DNA from: Candidatus Aenigmatarchaeota archaeon
GTDB taxonomy: Archaea; Aenigmatarchaeota; Aenigmatarchaeia; CG10238-14; SCSR01
Reading direction: 5' to 3'
NCBI GenBank assembly: GCA_038999725.1
Contig: JAWBWS010000001.1
Location: 1 to 64,000 of the forward strand
DNA length: 64,000 nucleotides
Of this stretch, positions 1-42,000 are shown one piece after another (position 1 is the stretch's first letter; the number at the start of each line of letters is the position of its first letter). Made by a program: the position numbers.

Positions 1-3000
1 CACTTCTCTACAAGTTTGGAACAAGGGAAACCTACCAGCAAACAATTTCAACATAACAGATAACAAAAACAACGTTTCGGTAACACATTCGAATGATTTA
101 GTTTTCCAAAATCCTTGGGCAAGTGATGGAAGTACTGCTACCATAATTCAAGGTTCTCAAGTTATTTGGGGTAATAACAACATAAATTTCAATTTACCAA
201 CAGGTAAAGATTTCTCCAAATTTTACAATTACACGATTTTTGTACCTTATCAAACAAATGGAACCTTTAAGTTTCAAGGAATTGGATTAAACGCTACACC
301 AAATTATGTTTTCTATGATGAACCTTATACAATTTTTATAGCTTGCGGTGCTTCTTTAAGTGTTAGTGAACCCACAATTAAAAAAGGAGAAATAACTAAT
401 CCACCAATTTATGCTGGAGATATTTTCAACATTTCCTCAACAATTTACAACGATGGTCCTGGGAATGCAACTAATGTAATTGTTGAAATTAACTATACCA
501 ACACAACTCTCATCTCGGGCTTAGAAAATCTTGTAATCAAAAACTTTACCCAAGAAATTAGCAACTTAACTTACTTCGAAACAATTGGTCCAAAACAATC
601 TAAAGTTGCTCATGTTGATTATACTTACATCGTTAATACAAGCAGTGTATCTCCAGGAACAATAAGGTTTTGCATAAAAGCAAACGCAACAGAAAATTCT
701 ACTCAAGTTATAGCATGCAAAGATGTAACTTTAAATGCACCGCCAGCAGTAATTGAAATGGAAAATCCGCTAATAATTTCTGATGAAACTGGAACTTCAA
801 CTGGCTCATGGGGTTTCAACTTTACTTTTAATATAAGCGTTAGAGTTAGCAATTCTGACAATCCTGTTCAAGTTTGTTCTTACTTTAGCAAAACTGGTAG
901 TGAACCTTGGAAATTGGTTGGTTGCGATAGCTATGCTGCTCCAGGATCATCTCCAGGTCCATGGAAAAATTTCACTTTCAGATTTGATGCTGATTGTGAA
1001 GATATAGGCTCACCAGTATTTGCAAAATTCAATGCAACAAACAATGCTGGAACAACAAACTCAACCTCAACAACATTTACAATAACAAAAGATAAAATAA
1101 GTTTTGAAGATATAATTGGGAATAATACAGAAACAAGAAGGGGAAAAACCACTACTCTACTTGCTTTAAGGATTAGAGATGTGAATGGAACTTTAGTTAC
1201 AAACTTGCCAATAACTTTTTATGTAACCTTAGATGGCTCAATTTACGATTCTGGAACAACCAACACAACAAATTCTTCTGCTTATGCAAACTATTACTTC
1301 CAAGCAAGATGCTCACCCAAATATCAAGTAGGATATCAAAAATGGAAAGCTGTTTTAAGCAATGATGCTTGCTACCAAGACAATTCTACAGAAAATTACT
1401 TCAATTTATCGGTATTGGTGATGGGAGATATTGTTCTTAGTTTTATGAGGCCAGATGGTCTGACAAACTATACACAAGAACAAGAAGTTCCTTTCCTTGG
1501 AGCAACTACAGACGATTGTGGAGATGCTCTAACAACAACAGTAAGATACTTTGCCAATAAAAGCACAACAAGCTTTGAATGCTCTCCAGTAAGCCAAGTT
1601 GGGGCTAACGCTTACACTTGCGATTGGCAAACCGATATTTCTACACCTATGGGATGGTACAATGCTAGTATGATTGTAAACAAAACTTACCATTACGATA
1701 ATAATACTGCAAACTTAGGAGTTCCAGGTTTATTCTATCTATTCCCGATTAAAAAGCTTGAGAATCCTTCAGCTATACCAACAACAGAAGGTTGGGGTAG
1801 ACCAAACTGGAATTTCTCAGTCTTGGCAAGCTCAGGAGATTCGGAAAATGTTTTGAACGTTAGCTTGTATATGGCAAAATCTTGGCCACCTGCAACAAAA
1901 TGTGATGCTCCAACTTGTTTAAACCAAACTCCAACTGAATGTTTAAACTGCATAGGAGAAACCAAATTCTGGTACAGAAACTTTTCAGCAAGCGAGCAGG
2001 GGACTTGGTATTATCAATTCAAGATGGATGGAAAAGAAACTGAGCAAGTTTTGTCAGTTACAGTAGAAAAGGATGATACTTTAATAGAATATTCTGAAGG
2101 AAATAACTCTTTTGCAAGATATTCTCCTGCAGAACCTGCAAAGCTTGTTGTAAGAGTTTTTGATTTAGATGCAAATACTTACAATTTAAATCCTCCAGCA
2201 AATGTTAACTTCCGAATTAATTATACTGGAATATACGATAAATTAGCTGGCTCAAATACCACAAACTCAACAGGATACGCTGTTTTCTACTTCATTCCAG
2301 ATTGTAGCTATAATGGTGGAGATCAATATTGGTATGTTGAGATTAATTCAAGTGATCCGAATTATAAACCCAGTTTTTCAAATCAATTTAACATAAGTTT
2401 GGATGTAACAGGATGTAAAGCTCAAGTAGATGTTACAGAAGTTCTAACTCCAAAGGAGGTGTTTGAATACAGGAATTTCACCATAAATGCAACAATAACA
2501 AGCTTGGTTAACACAAGCTACAATGTGAATGCAACCATTATTTTACCAGAAGGATGGCAAGTTGATGGAGAAAAACGTGAGCTTGGAACATTAAATCCAG
2601 GTGAAGTTAAAAAAGTTTGGTGGAATATAAATGCAACTAGCTACGGAGAAGCTAATGTAACAATACTTGTGAATGGAACAAGAGACGATGGAGTTGTAAC
2701 GAATGACACATTAATTTCAGGCAAGTTTATTGTTTATAAAGTTAAGCCTGCTGGTTTACCGATAGAAAACTTACCAATAGAATTGTTGGCTGGAGAGAAT
2801 AAGACATTTAGTTGGAGTTGTGAAGCAGGTCAATACAGAATAGCCAATCTAACGGTAAGCTCAACCAATTTAACTACTTCTCCAAAAGATGTTTTATTAA
2901 GAGTTTATGCTTATGATGGAAGTGAATGGAAGGATATTTTGCATAGCTATAAGATTAATTTAAATGGAAGTAGAGTTGATTTCATTCCTGTTTTGCAAGA

Positions 3001-39000: not shown

Positions 39001-42000
39001 CATGGAAATAGATTTGAAGAAATACATGAATCCAGGTGAAATTACGGTCTTTGTGATGAACAAGCTCAAGCCTGAGCAGTTAGACGCCTTTGTTAGAAGA
39101 AGTGTACAGGCTGTGTTTGACATGAGGCCACCAGAATCTAAAGAGATAAAGCTCTTGATGGTGTGGGATGAGGTTCACAGATTGCTTCCAAAGTATGGAG
39201 GTAAGGGAGGATATGTTGCAATTGAAAGGGCGTGTAGAGAATTCAGAAAATGGGGAATTGGTGTTTTTGTGATATCACAAGTTTTGTTAGATTTCAAGGG
39301 TGCAATTAGAGCAAACATAGCAAACGAAATTCAGTTGAGAACAAAATATGAAGGAGATATAGGAAGGGTGAAATCGAAGTATGGTGCTGAGTATGCTTCC
39401 AAAGTTACAAGGCTTACAATTGGTACTGCACTATTCCAGAATCCTGAGTACAACCATGGAAGACCTTGGTTCATCAGCTTTAGGCCCTTGCTACACTCTC
39501 CATTTGCTTTAACTGATGAAGAAATTAATCAATATGTGAAACTAAATAAGAAAATTGAAGAAATTGGAGGGAAAATAGAGAAATTGAAGGGAAAAGGTGT
39601 AGACACTTACGATTTAGAAATAGAGTTGAACATCGCTAAAGATAAGATTAAAACAGCAGCCTTCAAGATGGCCGAAACTTACTTAGAATCTATAGAAAAA
39701 AGAATTGAAAAATTTGAAAAAGGTAAGTAAATGCCTGAAAAAATTAAGAAGGAAGAATTGTTAAAAGAGATTGCTGATATAAAGTCTTTGATATCTCATT
39801 TAGAAGATGAGTATAGGAAAGCAAGCATCTCAGAAAAAAATTATCAGGAACTAAGGAAGAAATATTCAGAAAGATTGAAAGAATTAGAAGAGAAGTTGGG
39901 ACTCAAAGAAGAAGAAAAACCAAAGGGTGGTTTTTTAAAAAAGCTATTAGGAGAGAAAGAAGCTAAACCAAAGGTAAAATTAGAGGAAGTTGAAAAACCT
40001 GAAAGAGGAGAGCTTGAAGTTGGAGAAATTGAAGAGATGACACCAGAAGTTATAGAAAGGTTGGCACGGCAAGTAGCTGAAGAATCGGGAGTAACTGCAA
40101 CTGAAACTGAAGTAGAAGAAGAAATACCTGAAAAACCAGAAAGTATGCCATTAATTGAGATAGAAAAATTGAAAGCGATGATTGATGCTATAAGAGAAGC
40201 AAAACATGCTACAGATGAAACCATACACAATATCTCTGAAAGCATAGGTGAGTTGAGGTCGATGATATTTCAAACAGAAGGCTCTTTAAGGGAGACGATA
40301 TTAAAACTAGAGAAGATAGAAGATGAAGTATCCGAAATAAGGCCAAGAGAAATTGAAAAAAAGTTTAGGGAGTTGAACACAACTCTAGAAAAGCAACAAA
40401 TGCTTATTGAAAAATTTGATAGAAAGTCAGAAGATTTGTCAAACAAGATCAATGAAGTTCATAAAATTTTGAAGAGTATTGGTGGAATAGAAAATTTGAT
40501 TAACTTGAACAAAGATATACAAAAGAAAATTAAAGAAATGAAGGAAGCTCTTAAGTATACGGAAAGGCTTGCCCTTAAAACAGAGAAAATCTTCATTGAG
40601 TTGAATAAAAGTTTGGAAGATTTTGTGATTTATAAAGCAAGGCAAGAAAATTTGGATGAAGTGGTAAAAGAGTTAATAAAATCTGTTGATGGAATAAATT
40701 CAAAACTTGAAACTTTTTTAACTAGAAGAGATTTAGAAATGGTCAAAAGCGATATTCTGGTGCTACAAAAACAAATTGAAGAAATCAATAAAGTTTTGCC
40801 AGTTGCTCAAATAAAATTGCCTGAACCGATAACTGCTCTGAGAAAAGAAAGAGAAGATATTTTGCTTTTCTTAGACTCTTTGGAAGAGCAATTAAAAACG
40901 GGCAAAATAAGCATTGGAGAATATGAGGAAGTGAAGAGAAAAAATCTAAGTAAACTTTCGGAAATTGAAAACAAGTTGAAAAAGGAATGGGAAAAAATTG
41001 CAAAGTTGATAGAAAAGGGGGAAATTCCAAAAGAGGAAGAAGTTGTAGAAACTGAAGAAAGAGAAGAGATCCGAGAAGAAGAGCTAAGTTTAGAAGAGGA
41101 AAAACGGCTTTTAAAAGAAGAAGAAATACAGACAGAAGAAAGTGATGAGGGAAGGGAAGAAATGGCCGAAGTTCTTAAAAAGATTAAGGAGAGGGTAAAG
41201 TGATTATTGGGGTTATAAGCGCTAAAGGTGGTGTGGGAAAAACTACTGTCGTCTCTAATCTTGGAGCTGTTTTGGTTAAAGAGTTTGGAAAAAAAGTTCT
41301 TGTGGTAGATGGAAATATAACTACACCAACCCTTGGAATTCATCTAGGCATGCTTTCACAAGAGAAAACTATAGATGATGTTTTAGATGGAAATTTAATT
41401 TTTAATCAAGCAATATACATCCATCCATGCGGCTTACACATTGCACCTGCTAGCTTATCTTTGCGCACAAGATACCCTGATGTAGAAAAATTGAAAGAAA
41501 TATTGAGAGGGGTGAAAGAGTCTTATGATGTTATTTTTATTGATGGGGCTGCAGGCATAGGTAGAGAAGTCTTATCTACCATTCAAGCAAGCGATGGTGT
41601 TTTGGTTGTCACAAATCCAGAAATGACTTCTATTGTAGCTGCTATAAAGGCTATAAAAATTTCAAATACACTAAATATACCTGTTCTTGGAATAGTGATT
41701 AACAAAGTTACCAAAGGAAAACATGAATTAAAAATTTCTGATGTGGAAGAGTTGTGTGAAGTGAAAGTGATTTCCACCATACCCTATGATAAAAAGATAC
41801 CTGAAAGTATTAAAAAAATGACTCCAGTTGTTTTACTATATCCAAACTCACCCTCAAGTCTTGCCTTTAAATCTTTAGCAGCTTACATAATTGGAGAAGC
41901 CTATCCTAAGGAAACATTTTGGGATAAATTAAGGAAAATTTTAAGATTGGGTTAAACTTTTGGCTTCTTCTTTTTCTATCAAAATCTCGTGAGAAAGATC

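What a model noticed while it worked through the whole genome (the two positions that open the first line are those of the whole stretch)
2..39730. 13,242-aa (truncated) surface giant ending in a cytoplasmic HerA/FtsK-type ATPase
One open reading frame runs from the left end of contig C1 for 39.7 kb (g00001, >=13,242 aa, 5.4% of the 730-kb genome): ~12,800 residues of Ig-like/beta-sandwich repeats rich in N, S, T, one transmembrane helix (12838-12861) and a 380-aa C-terminal P-loop domain of the HerA/FtsK/TcpA translocase fold; relatives have orthologs of 9,000-14,000 aa. I read it as a hexameric membrane motor whose subunits each carry a micrometre-scale extracellular arm, i.e. an ATP-powered tether or conduit by which this host-dependent DPANN cell seizes its host and perhaps moves DNA or other polymers across the contact. 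New would be the largest archaeal proteins known to me (halomucin has 9,159 aa; recalled) and [...]
Evidence so far: Gene table: g00001 C1:2-39730(+), partial at the contig start. Only one hydrophobic segment, at 12838-12861; composition N 9.6, S 9.6, T 9.3%. Pfam at E<=0.01 on four pieces: Big_7, Big_1, Big_3_3, DUF11, NPCBM_assoc, Filamin, CarboxypepD_reg scattered along the ectodomain; DUF87/HerA central domain E 2e-10 and HerA_C at the C-terminus, Walker A AAGGTGSGKS. AlphaFold2 model of the last 480 aa: mean pLDDT 89; best PDB matches HerA of Sulfolobus 4d2i (E 9e-13), SIR2-HerA, HerA-NurA, conjugation coupling protein TcpA 6o1w, FtsK motor 2ius. The C-terminal 480 aa find 578 longer proteins (841-2,400 aa searched) with the same C-terminal module in Aenigmatarchaeota, Nanohaloarchaeota, Woesearchaeot [...]
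(Added by a program. Inside this text positions count along the whole contig: contig position 1 is position 1 of the stretch shown here. "Call 12" and the like, gene names such as g00115 and contig names such as C1 are that model's own, and its searches are not shown. The text may have been shortened before it was handed on; [...] marks where a part breaks off. The agent that wrote the report below was given it as the finding of a first reader that could run no searches.)

Follow-up and report, generated by a model that had tools for sequence, protein, structure and literature searches.

The report
Giant archaeal adhesin with ATPase tail
This is a real gene of about 14,850 codons from a tiny hot-spring archaeon that encodes a sugar-coated surface fibre anchored to an internal ring-type ATP motor, a design already published as the "SPEARE" giant proteins whose function is still untested.

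Summary
Window 2-39730(+) is one stop-free frame of 13,242 codons: a sequon-rich beta-sandwich ectodomain, one membrane helix, and an intact cytoplasmic HerA/VirB4-type P-loop ATPase with a helical tip.

The missing N-terminus lies at the end of contig C4. A same-genus relative has both pieces in one frame, about 819 residues apart, so the full protein has about 14,850 residues. It starts with a weak winged-helix match, a membrane helix and a conserved intein-like (Hint) domain without a +1 nucleophile.

Two complete orthologues (11,262 and 11,435 aa) share this layout. A coiled-coil gene follows directly in all 11 related loci read.

The design is not new. Hamm 2019 (SPEARE) and Reva 2023 (giant Ig-repeat protein, membrane helix, "VirB4/TraG-like ATPase", coiled coil, read as a secretion "straw") describe it, and a 12,127-aa DPANN example was printed in 2021. 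This scan has also met it in other genomes, including an intact 14,236-aa gene with the same order of parts.

Most likely it is a host-tethering fibre held by a ring ATPase. I found no channel or type IV secretion parts nearby. Verdict: a new, very large member of a known, functionally unsolved family. The N-terminal anchor-plus-Hint module and the conserved partner genes are the fresh parts.

The parts
2..38506 (+). Extracellular part present in the window (aa 1-12,835 of the window frame; the true N-terminus with about 1,610-1,640 further residues lies on contig C4 and in an unassembled gap)
   Evidence: Stop-free frame. It holds 622 N-x-S/T sequons against 233 +/- 13 in 200 shuffles. Pfam gives scattered Ig-like/beta-sandwich hits. 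It is collinear with the orthologues of G037 and G026 at 35-75 % identity.
1001..2524 (+). First block of the ~330-aa repeat unit (aa 334-841, about 1.5 units)
   Evidence: phmmer of unit aa 5001-5330 against the protein; self-BLAST offsets of 320-340 aa.
4979..9256 (+). Second block of the ~330-aa unit (aa 1660-3085, about 4 units)
   Evidence: Together with the first block it belongs to a segmental duplication: aa 527-~1718 resemble aa 2801-~4000 at 70-93 % identity. Window aa ~2400-4700 map a second time onto orthologue positions ~1600-3850.
11831..32317 (+). Main array of the ~330-aa unit (aa 3944-10772, about 21 units, with a three-unit super-period of ~980 aa)
   Evidence: One search finds 31 matched stretches in all, about 24 of them near full length. 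One search shows offset peaks at 320-340, 640-680, 960-1010 and 1280-1350 aa.
32318..38506 (+). Non-repetitive membrane-proximal ectodomain (aa 10,773-12,835), ending in an NPCBM_assoc-type beta-sandwich just before the membrane
   Evidence: No internal paralogy. NPCBM_assoc, Big_1 and Big_7 hits. No PDB sequence match at E<=0.01. The Atlas gave only a weak lead, score 0.86.
38507..38599 (+). Single transmembrane helix (aa 12,836-12,866)
   Evidence: It is the only Kyte-Doolittle 19-mer above 1.6 in 13,242 aa. The positive-inside rule is met, with 7 K/R in the next 28 residues. A hydrophobic 19-mer precedes the module in 167 of 178 family members examined.
38600..39514 (+). Cytoplasmic HerA/VirB4-type P-loop ATPase core (tail aa 1-305). 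Walker A GGTGSGKS lies at 38780-38803 and Walker B LLMVWDE at 39152-39172.
   Evidence: Pfam DUF87 1e-11. A PDB profile search gives HerA 7e-10. The AF2 model has pLDDT 92.6. Foldseek gives HerA 4d2i 2.4e-13. VIA gives Z 25.6 for HerA, 23.9 for DndH-C and 23.4 for VirB4. The motifs are invariant in 10 orthologues.
39515..39727 (+). C-terminal three-helix tip of the tail (tail aa 306-376), holding a short 'LTDEEINQYVKL' hairpin-like motif
   Evidence: The model has helices 306-331, 337-351 and 355-374. The same kind of motif occurs twice in the next gene's product and once in the tail of the 1,954-aa neighbour. Pfam SHOCT was not matched at E<=10.
39731..41203 (+). Conserved partner gene: a 490-aa soluble E/K-rich coiled-coil protein. 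Its start codon follows the giant gene's stop directly.
   Evidence: No Pfam family and only weak SMC-like coiled-coil hits. A homologous gene lies directly downstream in the 11 related loci read, one of them broken by a masked stretch, and in 5 of 5 extended loci by tblastn.
41200..41955 (+). MinD/ParA-type ATPase (251 aa). Its start overlaps the coiled-coil gene's stop by 4 bases.
   Evidence: Pfam ParA 7.1e-22 and CbiA 6.9e-21. A MinD-like gene is present in 3 of 5 extended orthologous loci. Two more paralogues lie at 56573-57352 and 61365-62159.
43100..48964 (+). Associated second large surface protein (1,954 aa; signal or anchor, C-terminal TM, short cytoplasmic tail with the same hairpin-like motif)
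   Evidence: Pfam NPCBM_assoc 1.9e-26 and MG2. TM-like segments at 1-30 and 1848-1875, and 4.2 sequons per 100 aa. It is found downstream of the giant gene in 4 of 5 extended loci. Tail sequence.

Best explanation
The gene encodes a SPEARE-type giant membrane-anchored surface protein of an Aenigmatarchaeota-like DPANN archaeon, about 14,850 residues long.

Shown:
- The order of parts is: a weak winged-helix match, a membrane helix, a Ser/Thr-rich linker, a beta-sandwich interrupted by a conserved Hint (intein-like) domain, about 14,000 residues of sequon-saturated beta-sandwich domains (about 27 copies of a 330-aa three-domain unit plus unique regions), a single membrane helix, a 305-residue HerA/VirB4-type P-loop ATPase with all catalytic motifs, and a three-helix tip.
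- The membrane helix plus ATPase is the conserved core of a large DPANN family. The ectodomain varies freely in length.
- A coiled-coil gene, and often a MinD-like gene and a 1,950-aa surface protein gene, travel with it.

Inferred:
- The ectodomain is exported, N-glycosylated and acts as a fibre of up to about 0.5 um that binds the host cell.
- The Hint domain has Ser1, TxxH and a terminal Asn but an invariant Leu at +1. It cannot splice, so it probably cuts the chain. That would free the distal end from the N-terminal anchor.
- The tails assemble into a HerA-like ring, which would gather several fibres at one membrane site. The coiled-coil and MinD-like proteins would organise or place that site.
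- ATP hydrolysis acts on a substrate that is still unknown. I think it more likely remodels or regulates the anchorage than pumps a polymer through the membrane, because six single helices and the local genes offer no channel.
For: - Frame and composition.
- Outside/inside assignment: 622 sequons in the ectodomain against 233 +/- 13 expected and 0 in the tail; positive-inside flank.
- ATPase identity.
- Motif conservation: 80 % mean column identity in 10 orthologous tails, against 35-75 % for ectodomain chunks.
- Family core: 931 clusters at E<=1e-3 and 360 at E<=1e-30. Of 178 full modules, 170 have Walker B, at least 169 have Walker A and 167 have an upstream hydrophobic segment.
- N-terminus: the C4 end frame of 839 aa matches orthologue aa 285-526. 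In G004 one 1,879-aa frame holds both the C4 piece (82 % identity) and the first 236 aa of the window (95 % identity), 819 aa apart.
- Hint domain: conserved in 8 relatives with S|SYD..., TPxH and ...WSSN|L; Pfam Intein_splicing 5.3e-4 and 5.4e-5, both below cut-off; canonical Cys1/...GN|S versions occur in other family giants.
- Partner genes.
- Independent assemblies: complete orthologues of 11,262 and 11,435 aa; exact-match contig pieces in 4 runs of 2 studies.
- Published relatives with the same layout: PMC6642349, PMC10266531, PMC8470020 (passages read).
Against: - No experiment exists for this protein or its close relatives.
- Host binding is inferred only from adhesin-type folds and from what is written about Nanohaloarchaeota.
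- Ring formation is inferred from fold and from the conserved arginine motif. It was not modelled.
- The Hint and winged-helix Pfam matches are all below the curated cut-offs.
- In G026 the winged-helix/TM protein is a separate upstream gene. The fusion is therefore lineage-specific and may not matter for function.
- A laminin-G domain, which Hamm 2019 found in all SPEARE ectodomains, was not detected here at E<=0.01.
- I could not compare the tail directly with the named nanohaloarchaeal proteins.
- About 819 residues are unassembled, and the long-range order of the repeats is not verified by any spanning contig.
- The nearest curated families after HerA include the DNA-translocating ATPase CedD (1.4e-9). 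That fits a pump at least as well as an anchor.
Confidence: 0.6

Rival explanations
1. Conduit or 'straw'. The ring ATPase is the motor of a type IV secretion-like or Ced-like translocation device that moves DNA or effector proteins between symbiont and host along or beside the fibre.
For: - The fold is close to VirB4 (Z 23.4), to the coupling proteins TrwB (18.4) and TcpA (17.1), to EccC (17.1) and to FtsK (16.9).
- NCBIfam CedD 1.4e-9; TraB, TraC and TraD weakly.
- Pfam T4SS-DNA_transf 5.7e-5.
- A DNA-binding-type winged helix and ParA/MinD-type ATPases sit in the same gene or operon.
- Reva 2023 reports a true VirB4 gene next to the nanohaloarchaeal giants (passage read).
Against: - No PF03135 VirB4 N-domain anywhere in this 93 %-complete genome.
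- Among the 15 ORFs read downstream, none has more than three hydrophobic segments, so no polytopic membrane protein stands out.
- There is one TM helix per subunit.
- The gene next door is a coiled coil, not an ATPase.
- All matches to transfer ATPases are far below family cut-offs.
- HerA-family chains rank first in every search.
Confidence: 0.17
2. Self-service motor. The ATPase works on the giant protein itself, in export or quality control of a 14,000-residue chain, in tensioning or retraction, or in extraction and turnover of the anchor.
For: - The ATPase is always fused in cis to an exported region of very variable length, 356 to more than 7,800 aa in the proteins fetched. This suggests its function serves whatever is attached.
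- Hamm 2019 found ectodomain peptides and TM/cytoplasmic peptides in different size fractions, so the protein is processed (passage read).
Against: - HerA/FtsK-type rings are known (established knowledge) to thread nucleic acids or, in EccC, secretion substrates. They are not known to act on their own fused polypeptide.
- The N-terminal signal or anchor segments found in 21 of 43 family members of 5,000 aa or more fit ordinary Sec export.
Confidence: 0.12
3. Envelope coat. The protein is mainly a structural, S-layer-like or glycocalyx component of the symbiont's own envelope, and has no specific role in host contact.
For: - Very high sequon density.
- Monotonous beta-sandwich repeats.
- It is encoded beside a conserved surface-assembly locus.
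Against: - A coat protein does not need a conserved ring ATPase.
- The ectodomain diverges fast and changes length by internal duplication, as expected for a partner-recognition surface.
- Published relatives are discussed as host-interaction proteins.
Confidence: 0.08
4. Assembly artefact. The frame is a chimera or a mis-expanded repeat from a metagenome assembly.
For: - The contig starts inside the gene.
- Bins 1-2000 and 8672-12673 are fragmented and variant-rich in Logan contigs.
- No record spans the stretch.
- The gene carries an internal duplication of about 2,100 aa that the orthologues lack.
Against: - There is no stop in 13,242 codons.
- The two copies of the duplication are only 70-93 % identical at protein level.
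- Exact-match pieces cover 2183-4244, 5599-8395, 12358-13063 and 13384-20000 in two or three runs.
- Independent genomes hold collinear frames of 11,262 and 11,435 aa.
Confidence: 0.03

Closest known systems
SPEARE proteins / 'giant membrane-anchored extracellular proteins' of Nanohaloarchaeota (Hamm 2019, PMC6642349; Reva 2023, PMC10266531; passages read)
   Same: - A giant, mostly extracellular adhesion-domain region, one TM helix near the C-terminus, a conserved cytoplasmic P-loop domain and a helical or coiled-coil tip.
- DPANN host-dependent organisms.
- Hamm notes similar intracellular parts in Aenigmarchaeota.
- A family member labelled 'Nanohaloarchaea archaeon' shares 58 % identity in the tail.
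- The ResIII hit that gave SPEARE its 'RE' falls on this same P-loop.
   Different: - About 14,850 aa against 5,998-9,409 aa.
- From a hot-spring, non-halophilic lineage.
- No laminin-G, protease or toxin-like domain detected.
- An N-terminal winged-helix/TM/Hint module is not mentioned in those papers (the words are absent from Reva 2023).
- The downstream neighbour is a coiled-coil protein, not a VirB4 ATPase.
- I could not align it to the named proteins themselves.
12,127-aa SPEARE-like protein of a DPANN EX4484-52 MAG (PMC8470020; passage read)
   Same: A DPANN protein above 12,000 aa, called SPEARE-like, with transmembrane helices at both ends.
   Different: It comes from a different phylum-level lineage and is about 2,700 aa shorter. 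The passage gives no domain analysis of the tail. I did not see its sequence.
Archaeal HerA (Sulfolobus HerA, PDB 4d2i) and defence-system HerA (SIR2-HerA, DUF4297-HerA)
   Same: HerA is the best match by sequence profile (7e-10), by Foldseek (2.4e-13) and by VIA (Z 25.6, rmsd 2.9 over 256 residues). The tail shares the Walker A/B motifs and the R-E-x-R-K-x-G motif.
   Different: - No HAS-barrel N-domain: only about 60 residues lie between the membrane helix and Walker A.
- It is membrane-tethered.
- No NurA, SIR2 or nuclease partner is adjacent.
- It scores 39.8 bits against an 800-bit equivalog cut-off.
VirB4 / coupling-protein ATPases of type IV secretion, and the Ced DNA-import ATPase of Crenarchaeota
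   Same: Same superfamily fold (VirB4 4ag5 Z 23.4; TrwB 18.4). They are membrane-associated ring ATPases working at cell-cell contacts. CedD scores 1.4e-9.
   Different: No VirB4 N-domain (PF03135) in the protein or the genome. No channel, pilin or other secretion-system genes were found in the locus. All scores are far below the curated cut-offs.
Bacterial intein-like (BIL) / Hint autoprocessing domains in variable surface proteins (name and properties recalled, not read here)
   Same: A Hint fold with a block A nucleophile, TxxH and a terminal Asn, lacking a +1 nucleophile. It sits in a hypervariable secreted protein, which suggests cleavage rather than splicing.
   Different: It is archaeal, uses Ser instead of Cys at position 1, and is inserted inside a beta-sandwich about 150 residues after an N-terminal membrane anchor. 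The Pfam match is below cut-off. Activity is untested.

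Membership tests
SPEARE / giant membrane-anchored extracellular proteins | Very long, mostly extracytoplasmic region built of adhesion-type (Ig-like) domains | tested here: met
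   12,835 aa before the TM helix. Big_1, Big_7, Big_3_3, DUF11, NPCBM_assoc and Filamin hits. Sequons are enriched 2.7-fold.
SPEARE / giant membrane-anchored extracellular proteins | One transmembrane helix near the C-terminus with the C-terminal region in the cytoplasm | tested here: met
   A single hydrophobic segment at aa 12836-12866, a K/R-rich flank after it and no sequon in the tail.
SPEARE / giant membrane-anchored extracellular proteins | Conserved cytoplasmic P-loop domain ('type III restriction enzyme' in Hamm 2019; 'VirB4/TraG-like ATPase' in Reva 2023), followed by a coiled-coil tip | tested here: met
   DUF87/HerA_C. Fold matches to HerA and VirB4. A helical tip at tail aa 306-374. 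ResIII scores 3.2e-7 on the same P-loop of family member P0036 and 0.08 here.
SPEARE / giant membrane-anchored extracellular proteins | Sequence homology to the named proteins (NAR1_1133, SG9 proteins, SVXNc_0300) | tested here: inconclusive
The only link is a 7,378-aa hit labelled 'Nanohaloarchaea archaeon' with 58 % tail identity.
SPEARE / giant membrane-anchored extracellular proteins | At least one laminin-G domain in the ectodomain (Hamm 2019) | tested here: inconclusive
   No laminin-G family at E<=0.01 in the 13,242 aa, while other family members carry PF13385/PF02210. About 819 aa are unassembled. Reva 2023 disputes the domain-based definition.
HerA (DNA-end-resection helicase) | N-terminal HAS-barrel domain before the RecA-like core | tested here: not met
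   Walker A starts at tail residue 61, directly after the membrane helix. Only two short strands precede it in the model.
HerA (DNA-end-resection helicase) | RecA-like core with Walker A/B and arginine motif; best structural match | tested here: met
   (Z 25.6).
HerA (DNA-end-resection helicase) | Score above the curated equivalog cut-off; adjacent NurA nuclease | tested here: not met
   39.8 bits against a cut-off of 800. The adjacent genes are a coiled-coil protein and a MinD.
VirB4 / TraG type IV secretion ATPases | VirB4 N-terminal domain (PF03135) and a type IV secretion gene context | tested here: not met
   No PF03135 match in the own genome, which is 93 % complete. No polytopic channel candidate or pilin-type genes among the window ORFs.
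VirB4 / TraG type IV secretion ATPases | C-terminal ATPase fold | tested here: met
   4ag5 Z 23.4, rmsd 2.6, 234 aligned. This is within about 2 Z units of HerA.
FtsK/SpoIIIE | Multi-helix membrane domain, alpha/beta motor and gamma DNA-recognition domain | tested here: not met
   One helix only. Pfam FtsK_SpoIIIE 0.0016, below cut-off. 2ius Z 16.9.
Canonical intein (for the N-terminal Hint domain on contig C4) | Nucleophile at position 1, TxxH block, terminal Asn, and a Cys/Ser/Thr at +1 | tested here: not met
   Ser1, TPNH and a terminal Asn are present, but +1 is Leu in all 9 aligned sequences that cover the site, this genome included. Related giants have Cys1 and ...GN|S.

The most novel reading that the evidence does not exclude
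One polypeptide unites a membrane-tethered DNA-binding domain, a self-cutting Hint switch, a half-micrometre adhesin and a HerA/Ced-like ring ATPase, and is co-transcribed with a coiled-coil scaffold and a ParA/MinD ATPase. Together these would form a contact-dependent DNA (or protein) capture and translocation organelle of DPANN archaea. The fibre seizes the host. Hint cleavage frees its tip and leaves the winged-helix stub beside the ring. The ring then pulls host polymer into a cell that cannot make its own building blocks.
Probability: 0.1. Interest if true: 0.85.

Novelty: new member of a known kind. Interest (0 to 1): 0.38.

Why it matters
DPANN archaea must take lipids, nucleotides and amino acids from a host, and how they hold and exploit it is unsolved. 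This protein family takes up about 6 % of a 0.73-Mb genome here. Its membrane-helix-plus-motor core is kept across many DPANN lineages, in hundreds of clusters, so it is probably central to that lifestyle.

This example adds four things to what is in print:
- A near-complete reconstruction of one of the longest members.
- A firmer assignment of the motor to the HerA/VirB4 branch.
- A conserved N-terminal anchor-plus-Hint module that predicts a testable self-cleavage.
- A conserved set of partner genes (coiled coil, MinD-like, a second large surface protein).

The tail, the Hint domain and the coiled-coil partner are each small enough to express and test.

Tried and rejected
- Complex prediction of the tail (376 aa, alignment A1) with the coiled-coil neighbour (490 aa, alignment A3): verdict 'no answer', score 0.00. 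This is no evidence either way.
- First AF2 run with 10 close orthologues: pLDDT 51.9, unusable. It was replaced by the 46-sequence run.
- Contig C7's 356-aa Cys-rich open end as the N-terminus: rejected. It has no match to the orthologues and no Pfam family.
- RNA evidence: no RNA holder listed.
- Read support: Logan contigs only. None spans 1-20000, and the listed joints have sides of 20-34 letters and look repeat-driven.
- PDB sequence search of the unique membrane-proximal 2,085 aa: nothing at E<=0.01. The Atlas gave only a 0.86 lead to CarboxypepD_reg proteins of Aenigmatarchaeota.
- Pfam SHOCT on the shared hairpin-like motifs: no hit at E<=10. I do not call them SHOCT.
- Winged helix: only sub-threshold hits, HTH_24 0.0017, and the PDB search was weak.
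- Cluster-member look-up: not available.
- Tail tree of 187 sequences: the own protein, its 9 orthologues and the 'Nanohaloarchaea'-labelled P0007 fall in supported clades (96-98). Protein lengths in metagenome fragments are lower bounds, so I draw nothing on the evolution of size.
- The paper search 'SPEARE' alone returned surname hits and was useless.
- Searches for intein+DPANN+giant (4 listings, none on this by title) and DPANN+transmembrane+HerA+surface protein (2 unrelated papers) found no description of the Hint module or of a 'HerA' label.
- The segment sent to Pfam as 'Hint' was shifted by 20 residues through my numbering slip. It still matched Intein_splicing.

Full report
**Observation.** The window holds a 5'-open frame at 2..39730(+) of 13,242 codons.
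- No ORF of 150 aa or more lies in any other frame of that stretch, and the window has no N.
- Composition is N 9.58, S 9.55, T 9.33 %. The only Kyte-Doolittle 19-mer above 1.6 is at aa 12836-12866.
- Pfam on three pieces gives scattered Ig-like/beta-sandwich hits (Big_7, Big_1, Big_3_3, DUF11, NPCBM_assoc, Filamin and others). At the C-terminus it gives DUF87 (4.9e-10) and HerA_C.
- GC content is even, 0.34-0.38, across the gene and its neighbours.

**Inside and outside.**
- The part before the helix carries 622 N-x-S/T sequons against 233 +/- 13 in 200 shuffles. The 376-aa tail carries none.
- The helix is preceded by acidic residues and followed by 7 K/R within 28 residues.
- Cys is 1.69 % outside and 0.8 % inside.

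The long part is therefore extracellular and probably N-glycosylated, and the ATPase is cytoplasmic. This is inference from sequence rules.

**The missing N-terminus.** The genome has 9 contigs. Among the frames that run off contig ends, the minus strand at the start of C4 holds 839 open codons.
- The last 210 of these match aa 318-526 of the G037 orthologue and aa 285-493 of the G026 orthologue. Window residue 1 matches their aa 1357-1365.
- In same-genus genome G004, contig C41 is one frame of 1,879 aa. Its aa 4-823 match the C4 piece at 82 % identity. Its aa 1643-1878 match the first 236 window residues at 95 % identity.
- C4 and C1 are therefore one gene with about 819 residues unassembled. 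The total is 792-819 + ~819 + 13,242, or about 14,850-14,880 aa. That is about 6 % of the genome.

**N-terminal architecture.** The architecture is conserved in 8 relatives. In order it has:
- a weak winged-helix match (HTH_24 0.0017, IclR, MarR_2, all below cut-off);
- a hydrophobic helix;
- a Ser/Thr-rich linker;
- a beta-sandwich interrupted by a 159-aa Hint-like domain.

The Hint-like domain begins S|SYD(G/E)ET, has the TxxH block (TPNH/TPKH) and ends ...VWSSN|L. Pfam Intein_splicing scores 5.3e-4 and 5.4e-5, below cut-off. The +1 residue is Leu in every aligned sequence. Canonical splicing is therefore excluded, and cleavage is the likely chemistry (inference).

An HMM of this domain finds four copies in family giant P0034 and one each in P0017 and P0035. 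There it has Cys at position 1, and in two cases ...GN|S. In G026 the winged-helix/TM protein is a separate 299-aa gene that overlaps the start of the giant gene. That giant has its own N-terminal hydrophobic segments.

**Ectodomain anatomy.**
- Self-comparison shows a unit of about 330 aa (offset peaks at 320-340, 640-680, 960-1010 aa).
- The unit gives 31 matched stretches, about 24 near full length, in three blocks: aa 334-841, 1660-3085 and 3944-10772. Every third unit is more alike.
- aa 527-~1718 and 2801-~4000 are 70-93 % identical.
- Against the orthologues, window aa ~2400-4700 map a second time onto positions ~1600-3850. Much of the extra length is therefore a recent internal duplication.
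- aa 10,773-12,835 are unique and match nothing in the PDB by sequence.
- I found no protease, lectin, laminin-G or toxin family at E<=0.01.
- At about 105 residues per beta-sandwich (Reva 2023 uses 100) and about 4 nm per domain (recalled), the fully stretched length would be about 0.5 um.

**The tail.**
- phmmer and a 46-sequence profile against PDB sequences hit only HerA-family chains strongly (7e-10 to 1e-6). IcmO scores 0.004, FtsK 0.06, TrwB 0.26 and TcpA 0.42.
- AF2 with 10 close orthologues failed (pLDDT 51.9). With 46 sequences it gave pLDDT 92.6 and pTM 0.90.
- Foldseek ranks HerA 4d2i first (2.4e-13), then SIR2-HerA, HerA-NurA, FtsK 2ius (6.6e-9) and TcpA 6o1w (8.9e-9).
- The Foldseek-independent VIA search gives HerA 4d2i Z 25.6 (rmsd 2.9, 256 aligned), DndH-C 23.9, VirB4 4ag5 23.4, other HerA 19.5-21.8, TrwB 18.4, TcpA 17.1, EccC 17.1 and FtsK 16.9.
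- NCBIfam gives HerA 1.8e-10 and CedD 1.4e-9, both far below their cut-offs.
- The tail has no HAS barrel. Walker A begins 61 residues after the helix.
- Walker A, Walker B, the REFRKWG motif and many other positions are invariant in 10 orthologues (80 % mean column identity). Ectodomain chunks are 35-75 % identical to the same orthologues.
- The last 70 residues form three helices.

The tail is thus a catalytically intact member of the HerA/VirB4 branch. It is not an orthologue of HerA, VirB4 or FtsK.

**Family.**
- The tail finds 931 clusters at E<=1e-3, 502 at E<=1e-10 and 360 at E<=1e-30 among 1.84 billion representatives.
- It finds 35 proteins of 5,516-7,883 aa in the length-restricted search. 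Source names include DUF87/DUF853 proteins of Nanohaloarchaea, Parvarchaeota, Micrarchaeota and Pacearchaeota.
- Of 183 fetched proteins that match my tail HMM, 178 have the full module. Of those, 170 have Walker B, at least 169 have Walker A and 167 have a hydrophobic 19-mer just upstream. Lengths run from 356 to 7,883 aa, and many are fragments.
- Among 39 relatives of the same order, 19 have a match at E<=1e-100.
- The own genome has two other DUF87 proteins (512 and 432 aa) and no VirB4 N-domain.

**Neighbours.**
- The giant gene's stop is followed at once by the ATG of a 490-aa E/K-rich coiled-coil protein without a Pfam family.
- That gene's stop overlaps the start of a 251-aa MinD/ParA ATPase.
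- A coiled-coil homologue lies directly downstream in the 11 related loci read, one of them interrupted by a masked stretch, and in 5 of 5 extended loci.
- In those 5 extended loci, the 1,954-aa surface protein is present in 4 and a MinD-like gene in 3.
- The giant's tail, the coiled-coil protein (twice) and the cytoplasmic tail of the 1,954-aa protein share a short hairpin-like motif. Pfam SHOCT does not match it.
- None of the 15 downstream ORFs has more than three hydrophobic segments.
- A complex prediction of the tail with the coiled-coil protein gave no verdict.

**Assembly support.**
- Four hot-spring metagenome runs from two studies hold half or more of the sampled words. No RNA run is listed.
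- Their Logan contigs match 2183-4244, 5599-8395, 12358-13063 and 13384-20000 without a mismatch in two or three runs.
- Bins 1-2000 and 8672-12673 are fragmented, with many variants, and nothing spans the whole stretch.
- Independent genomes with collinear 11,262- and 11,435-aa frames are the stronger support.

**What is known.**
- Hamm 2019 (PMC6642349, passages) defined SPEARE proteins of up to 8,553 aa: mostly extracellular, a TM helix near the C-terminus, and a conserved intracellular part read as a type III restriction enzyme. The paper notes similar sequences in Woese-, Aenigm- and Micrarchaeota, and shows the protein by proteomics.
- Reva 2023 (PMC10266531, section 11 passages) re-read the tail as a 'VirB4/TraG-like ATPase' followed by a coiled coil. 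It described 8,880- and 9,409-aa proteins with about 75 Ig-like domains and proposed secretion 'straws'.
- One search shows ResIII (3.2e-7) on the same P-loop as DUF87 in family member P0036. The two papers and this tail therefore concern one module.
- PMC8470020 (passage) reports a 12,127-aa SPEARE-like protein with TM helices at both ends.
- West-Roberts 2023 (bioRxiv 10.1101/2023.11.21.568195, passages) reports archaeal proteins above 10,000 aa, mostly in Asgard archaea.
- Twelve papers hold both 'SPEARE' and 'DPANN' (listing). In the three further ones whose SPEARE passages I read there is no functional test.
- Reva 2023 does not contain the words intein, Hint, helix-turn-helix, MinD or hexamer.
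- Searches for intein+DPANN+giant and DPANN+transmembrane+HerA+surface protein listed nothing on this by title.

**Earlier notes of this scan.**
- Searches show the same design in at least seven other genomes. One is an intact 14,236-aa frame noted as wHTH, TM, Hint, about 26 modules, TM, ATPase. I reached the same order of parts from the sequences before I saw that note.
The passages above contradict it.

**Verdict.**
- It is a new and very long member of the published SPEARE-type family. Neither the fused ATPase nor the conduit idea is new.
- My best reading is a glycosylated host-tethering fibre whose cytoplasmic HerA/VirB4-type ring gathers and controls the anchorage, with Hint-mediated release of the distal end.
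- A translocation role stays open but lacks local channel parts.
- The fresh and testable items are the N-terminal anchor-plus-Hint module, the conserved coiled-coil/MinD partners, and the reconstruction to about 14,850 residues.

Noticed in passing
G000 contig C4:1-2457 (minus strand; locus L020), outside the window: This is the true N-terminus of the giant gene. It has a weak winged-helix match, a TM helix, an S/T-rich linker and a 159-aa Hint/intein-like domain (Ser1, TPNH, ...WSSN|Leu) inserted in a beta-sandwich. The arrangement is conserved in 8 relatives.
   Followed up: yes
proteins P0034, P0017, P0035 (family giants): P0034 carries four Hint-like domains along its ectodomain. P0017 and P0035 carry one each, with 200-300-aa inserts. 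These start with Cys, and two end ...GN|S like true inteins. Intein-like elements seem to recur in this family of surface giants.
   Followed up: partly
window 41200-41955, 56573-57352, 61365-62159 (+): Three MinD/ParA-type ATPase paralogues lie within 21 kb, interleaved with surface-protein genes. This may be a positioning system for the surface assemblies.
   Followed up: partly
window 41941-42603 (-): A small Ras/Arf-like GTPase (220 aa) with an N-terminal hydrophobic helix. It converges on the MinD gene and overlaps its end by 15 bases.
   Followed up: no
window 48972-49841 and 50185-51075 (-): Two paralogous secreted 289- and 296-aa proteins without a Pfam family, whose C-terminal ~170 residues are nearly identical. 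Homologues lie in the same place in G037 and G024.
   Followed up: no
window 49923-50114 and 51229-51423 (+): Two small frames (99 and 69 aa) match the winged-helix part of the giant's N-terminus at 6e-10 and 5e-9. Similar small genes are scattered through the relatives' genomes.
   Followed up: no
G000 contig C7:~15340-16407 (locus L013): A 356-codon frame runs off the contig end. It has a signal-like helix followed by a very Cys-rich region, no Pfam family and no match to the giant's orthologues. It looks like another truncated surface protein.
   Followed up: partly
profile A2, positions 72-245 (pre-membrane ectodomain of short family members): A weak PDB profile hit (E 0.0016) to the Enterococcus WxL-interacting protein EfmWxLIP1.
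   Followed up: no
window 1-2000 and 8672-12673: In Logan contigs of four runs these bins show several-fold higher summed depth and many variant contigs. This suggests co-existing strains or related species sharing these parts of the gene, and it probably explains why the contig breaks at position 1.
   Followed up: partly
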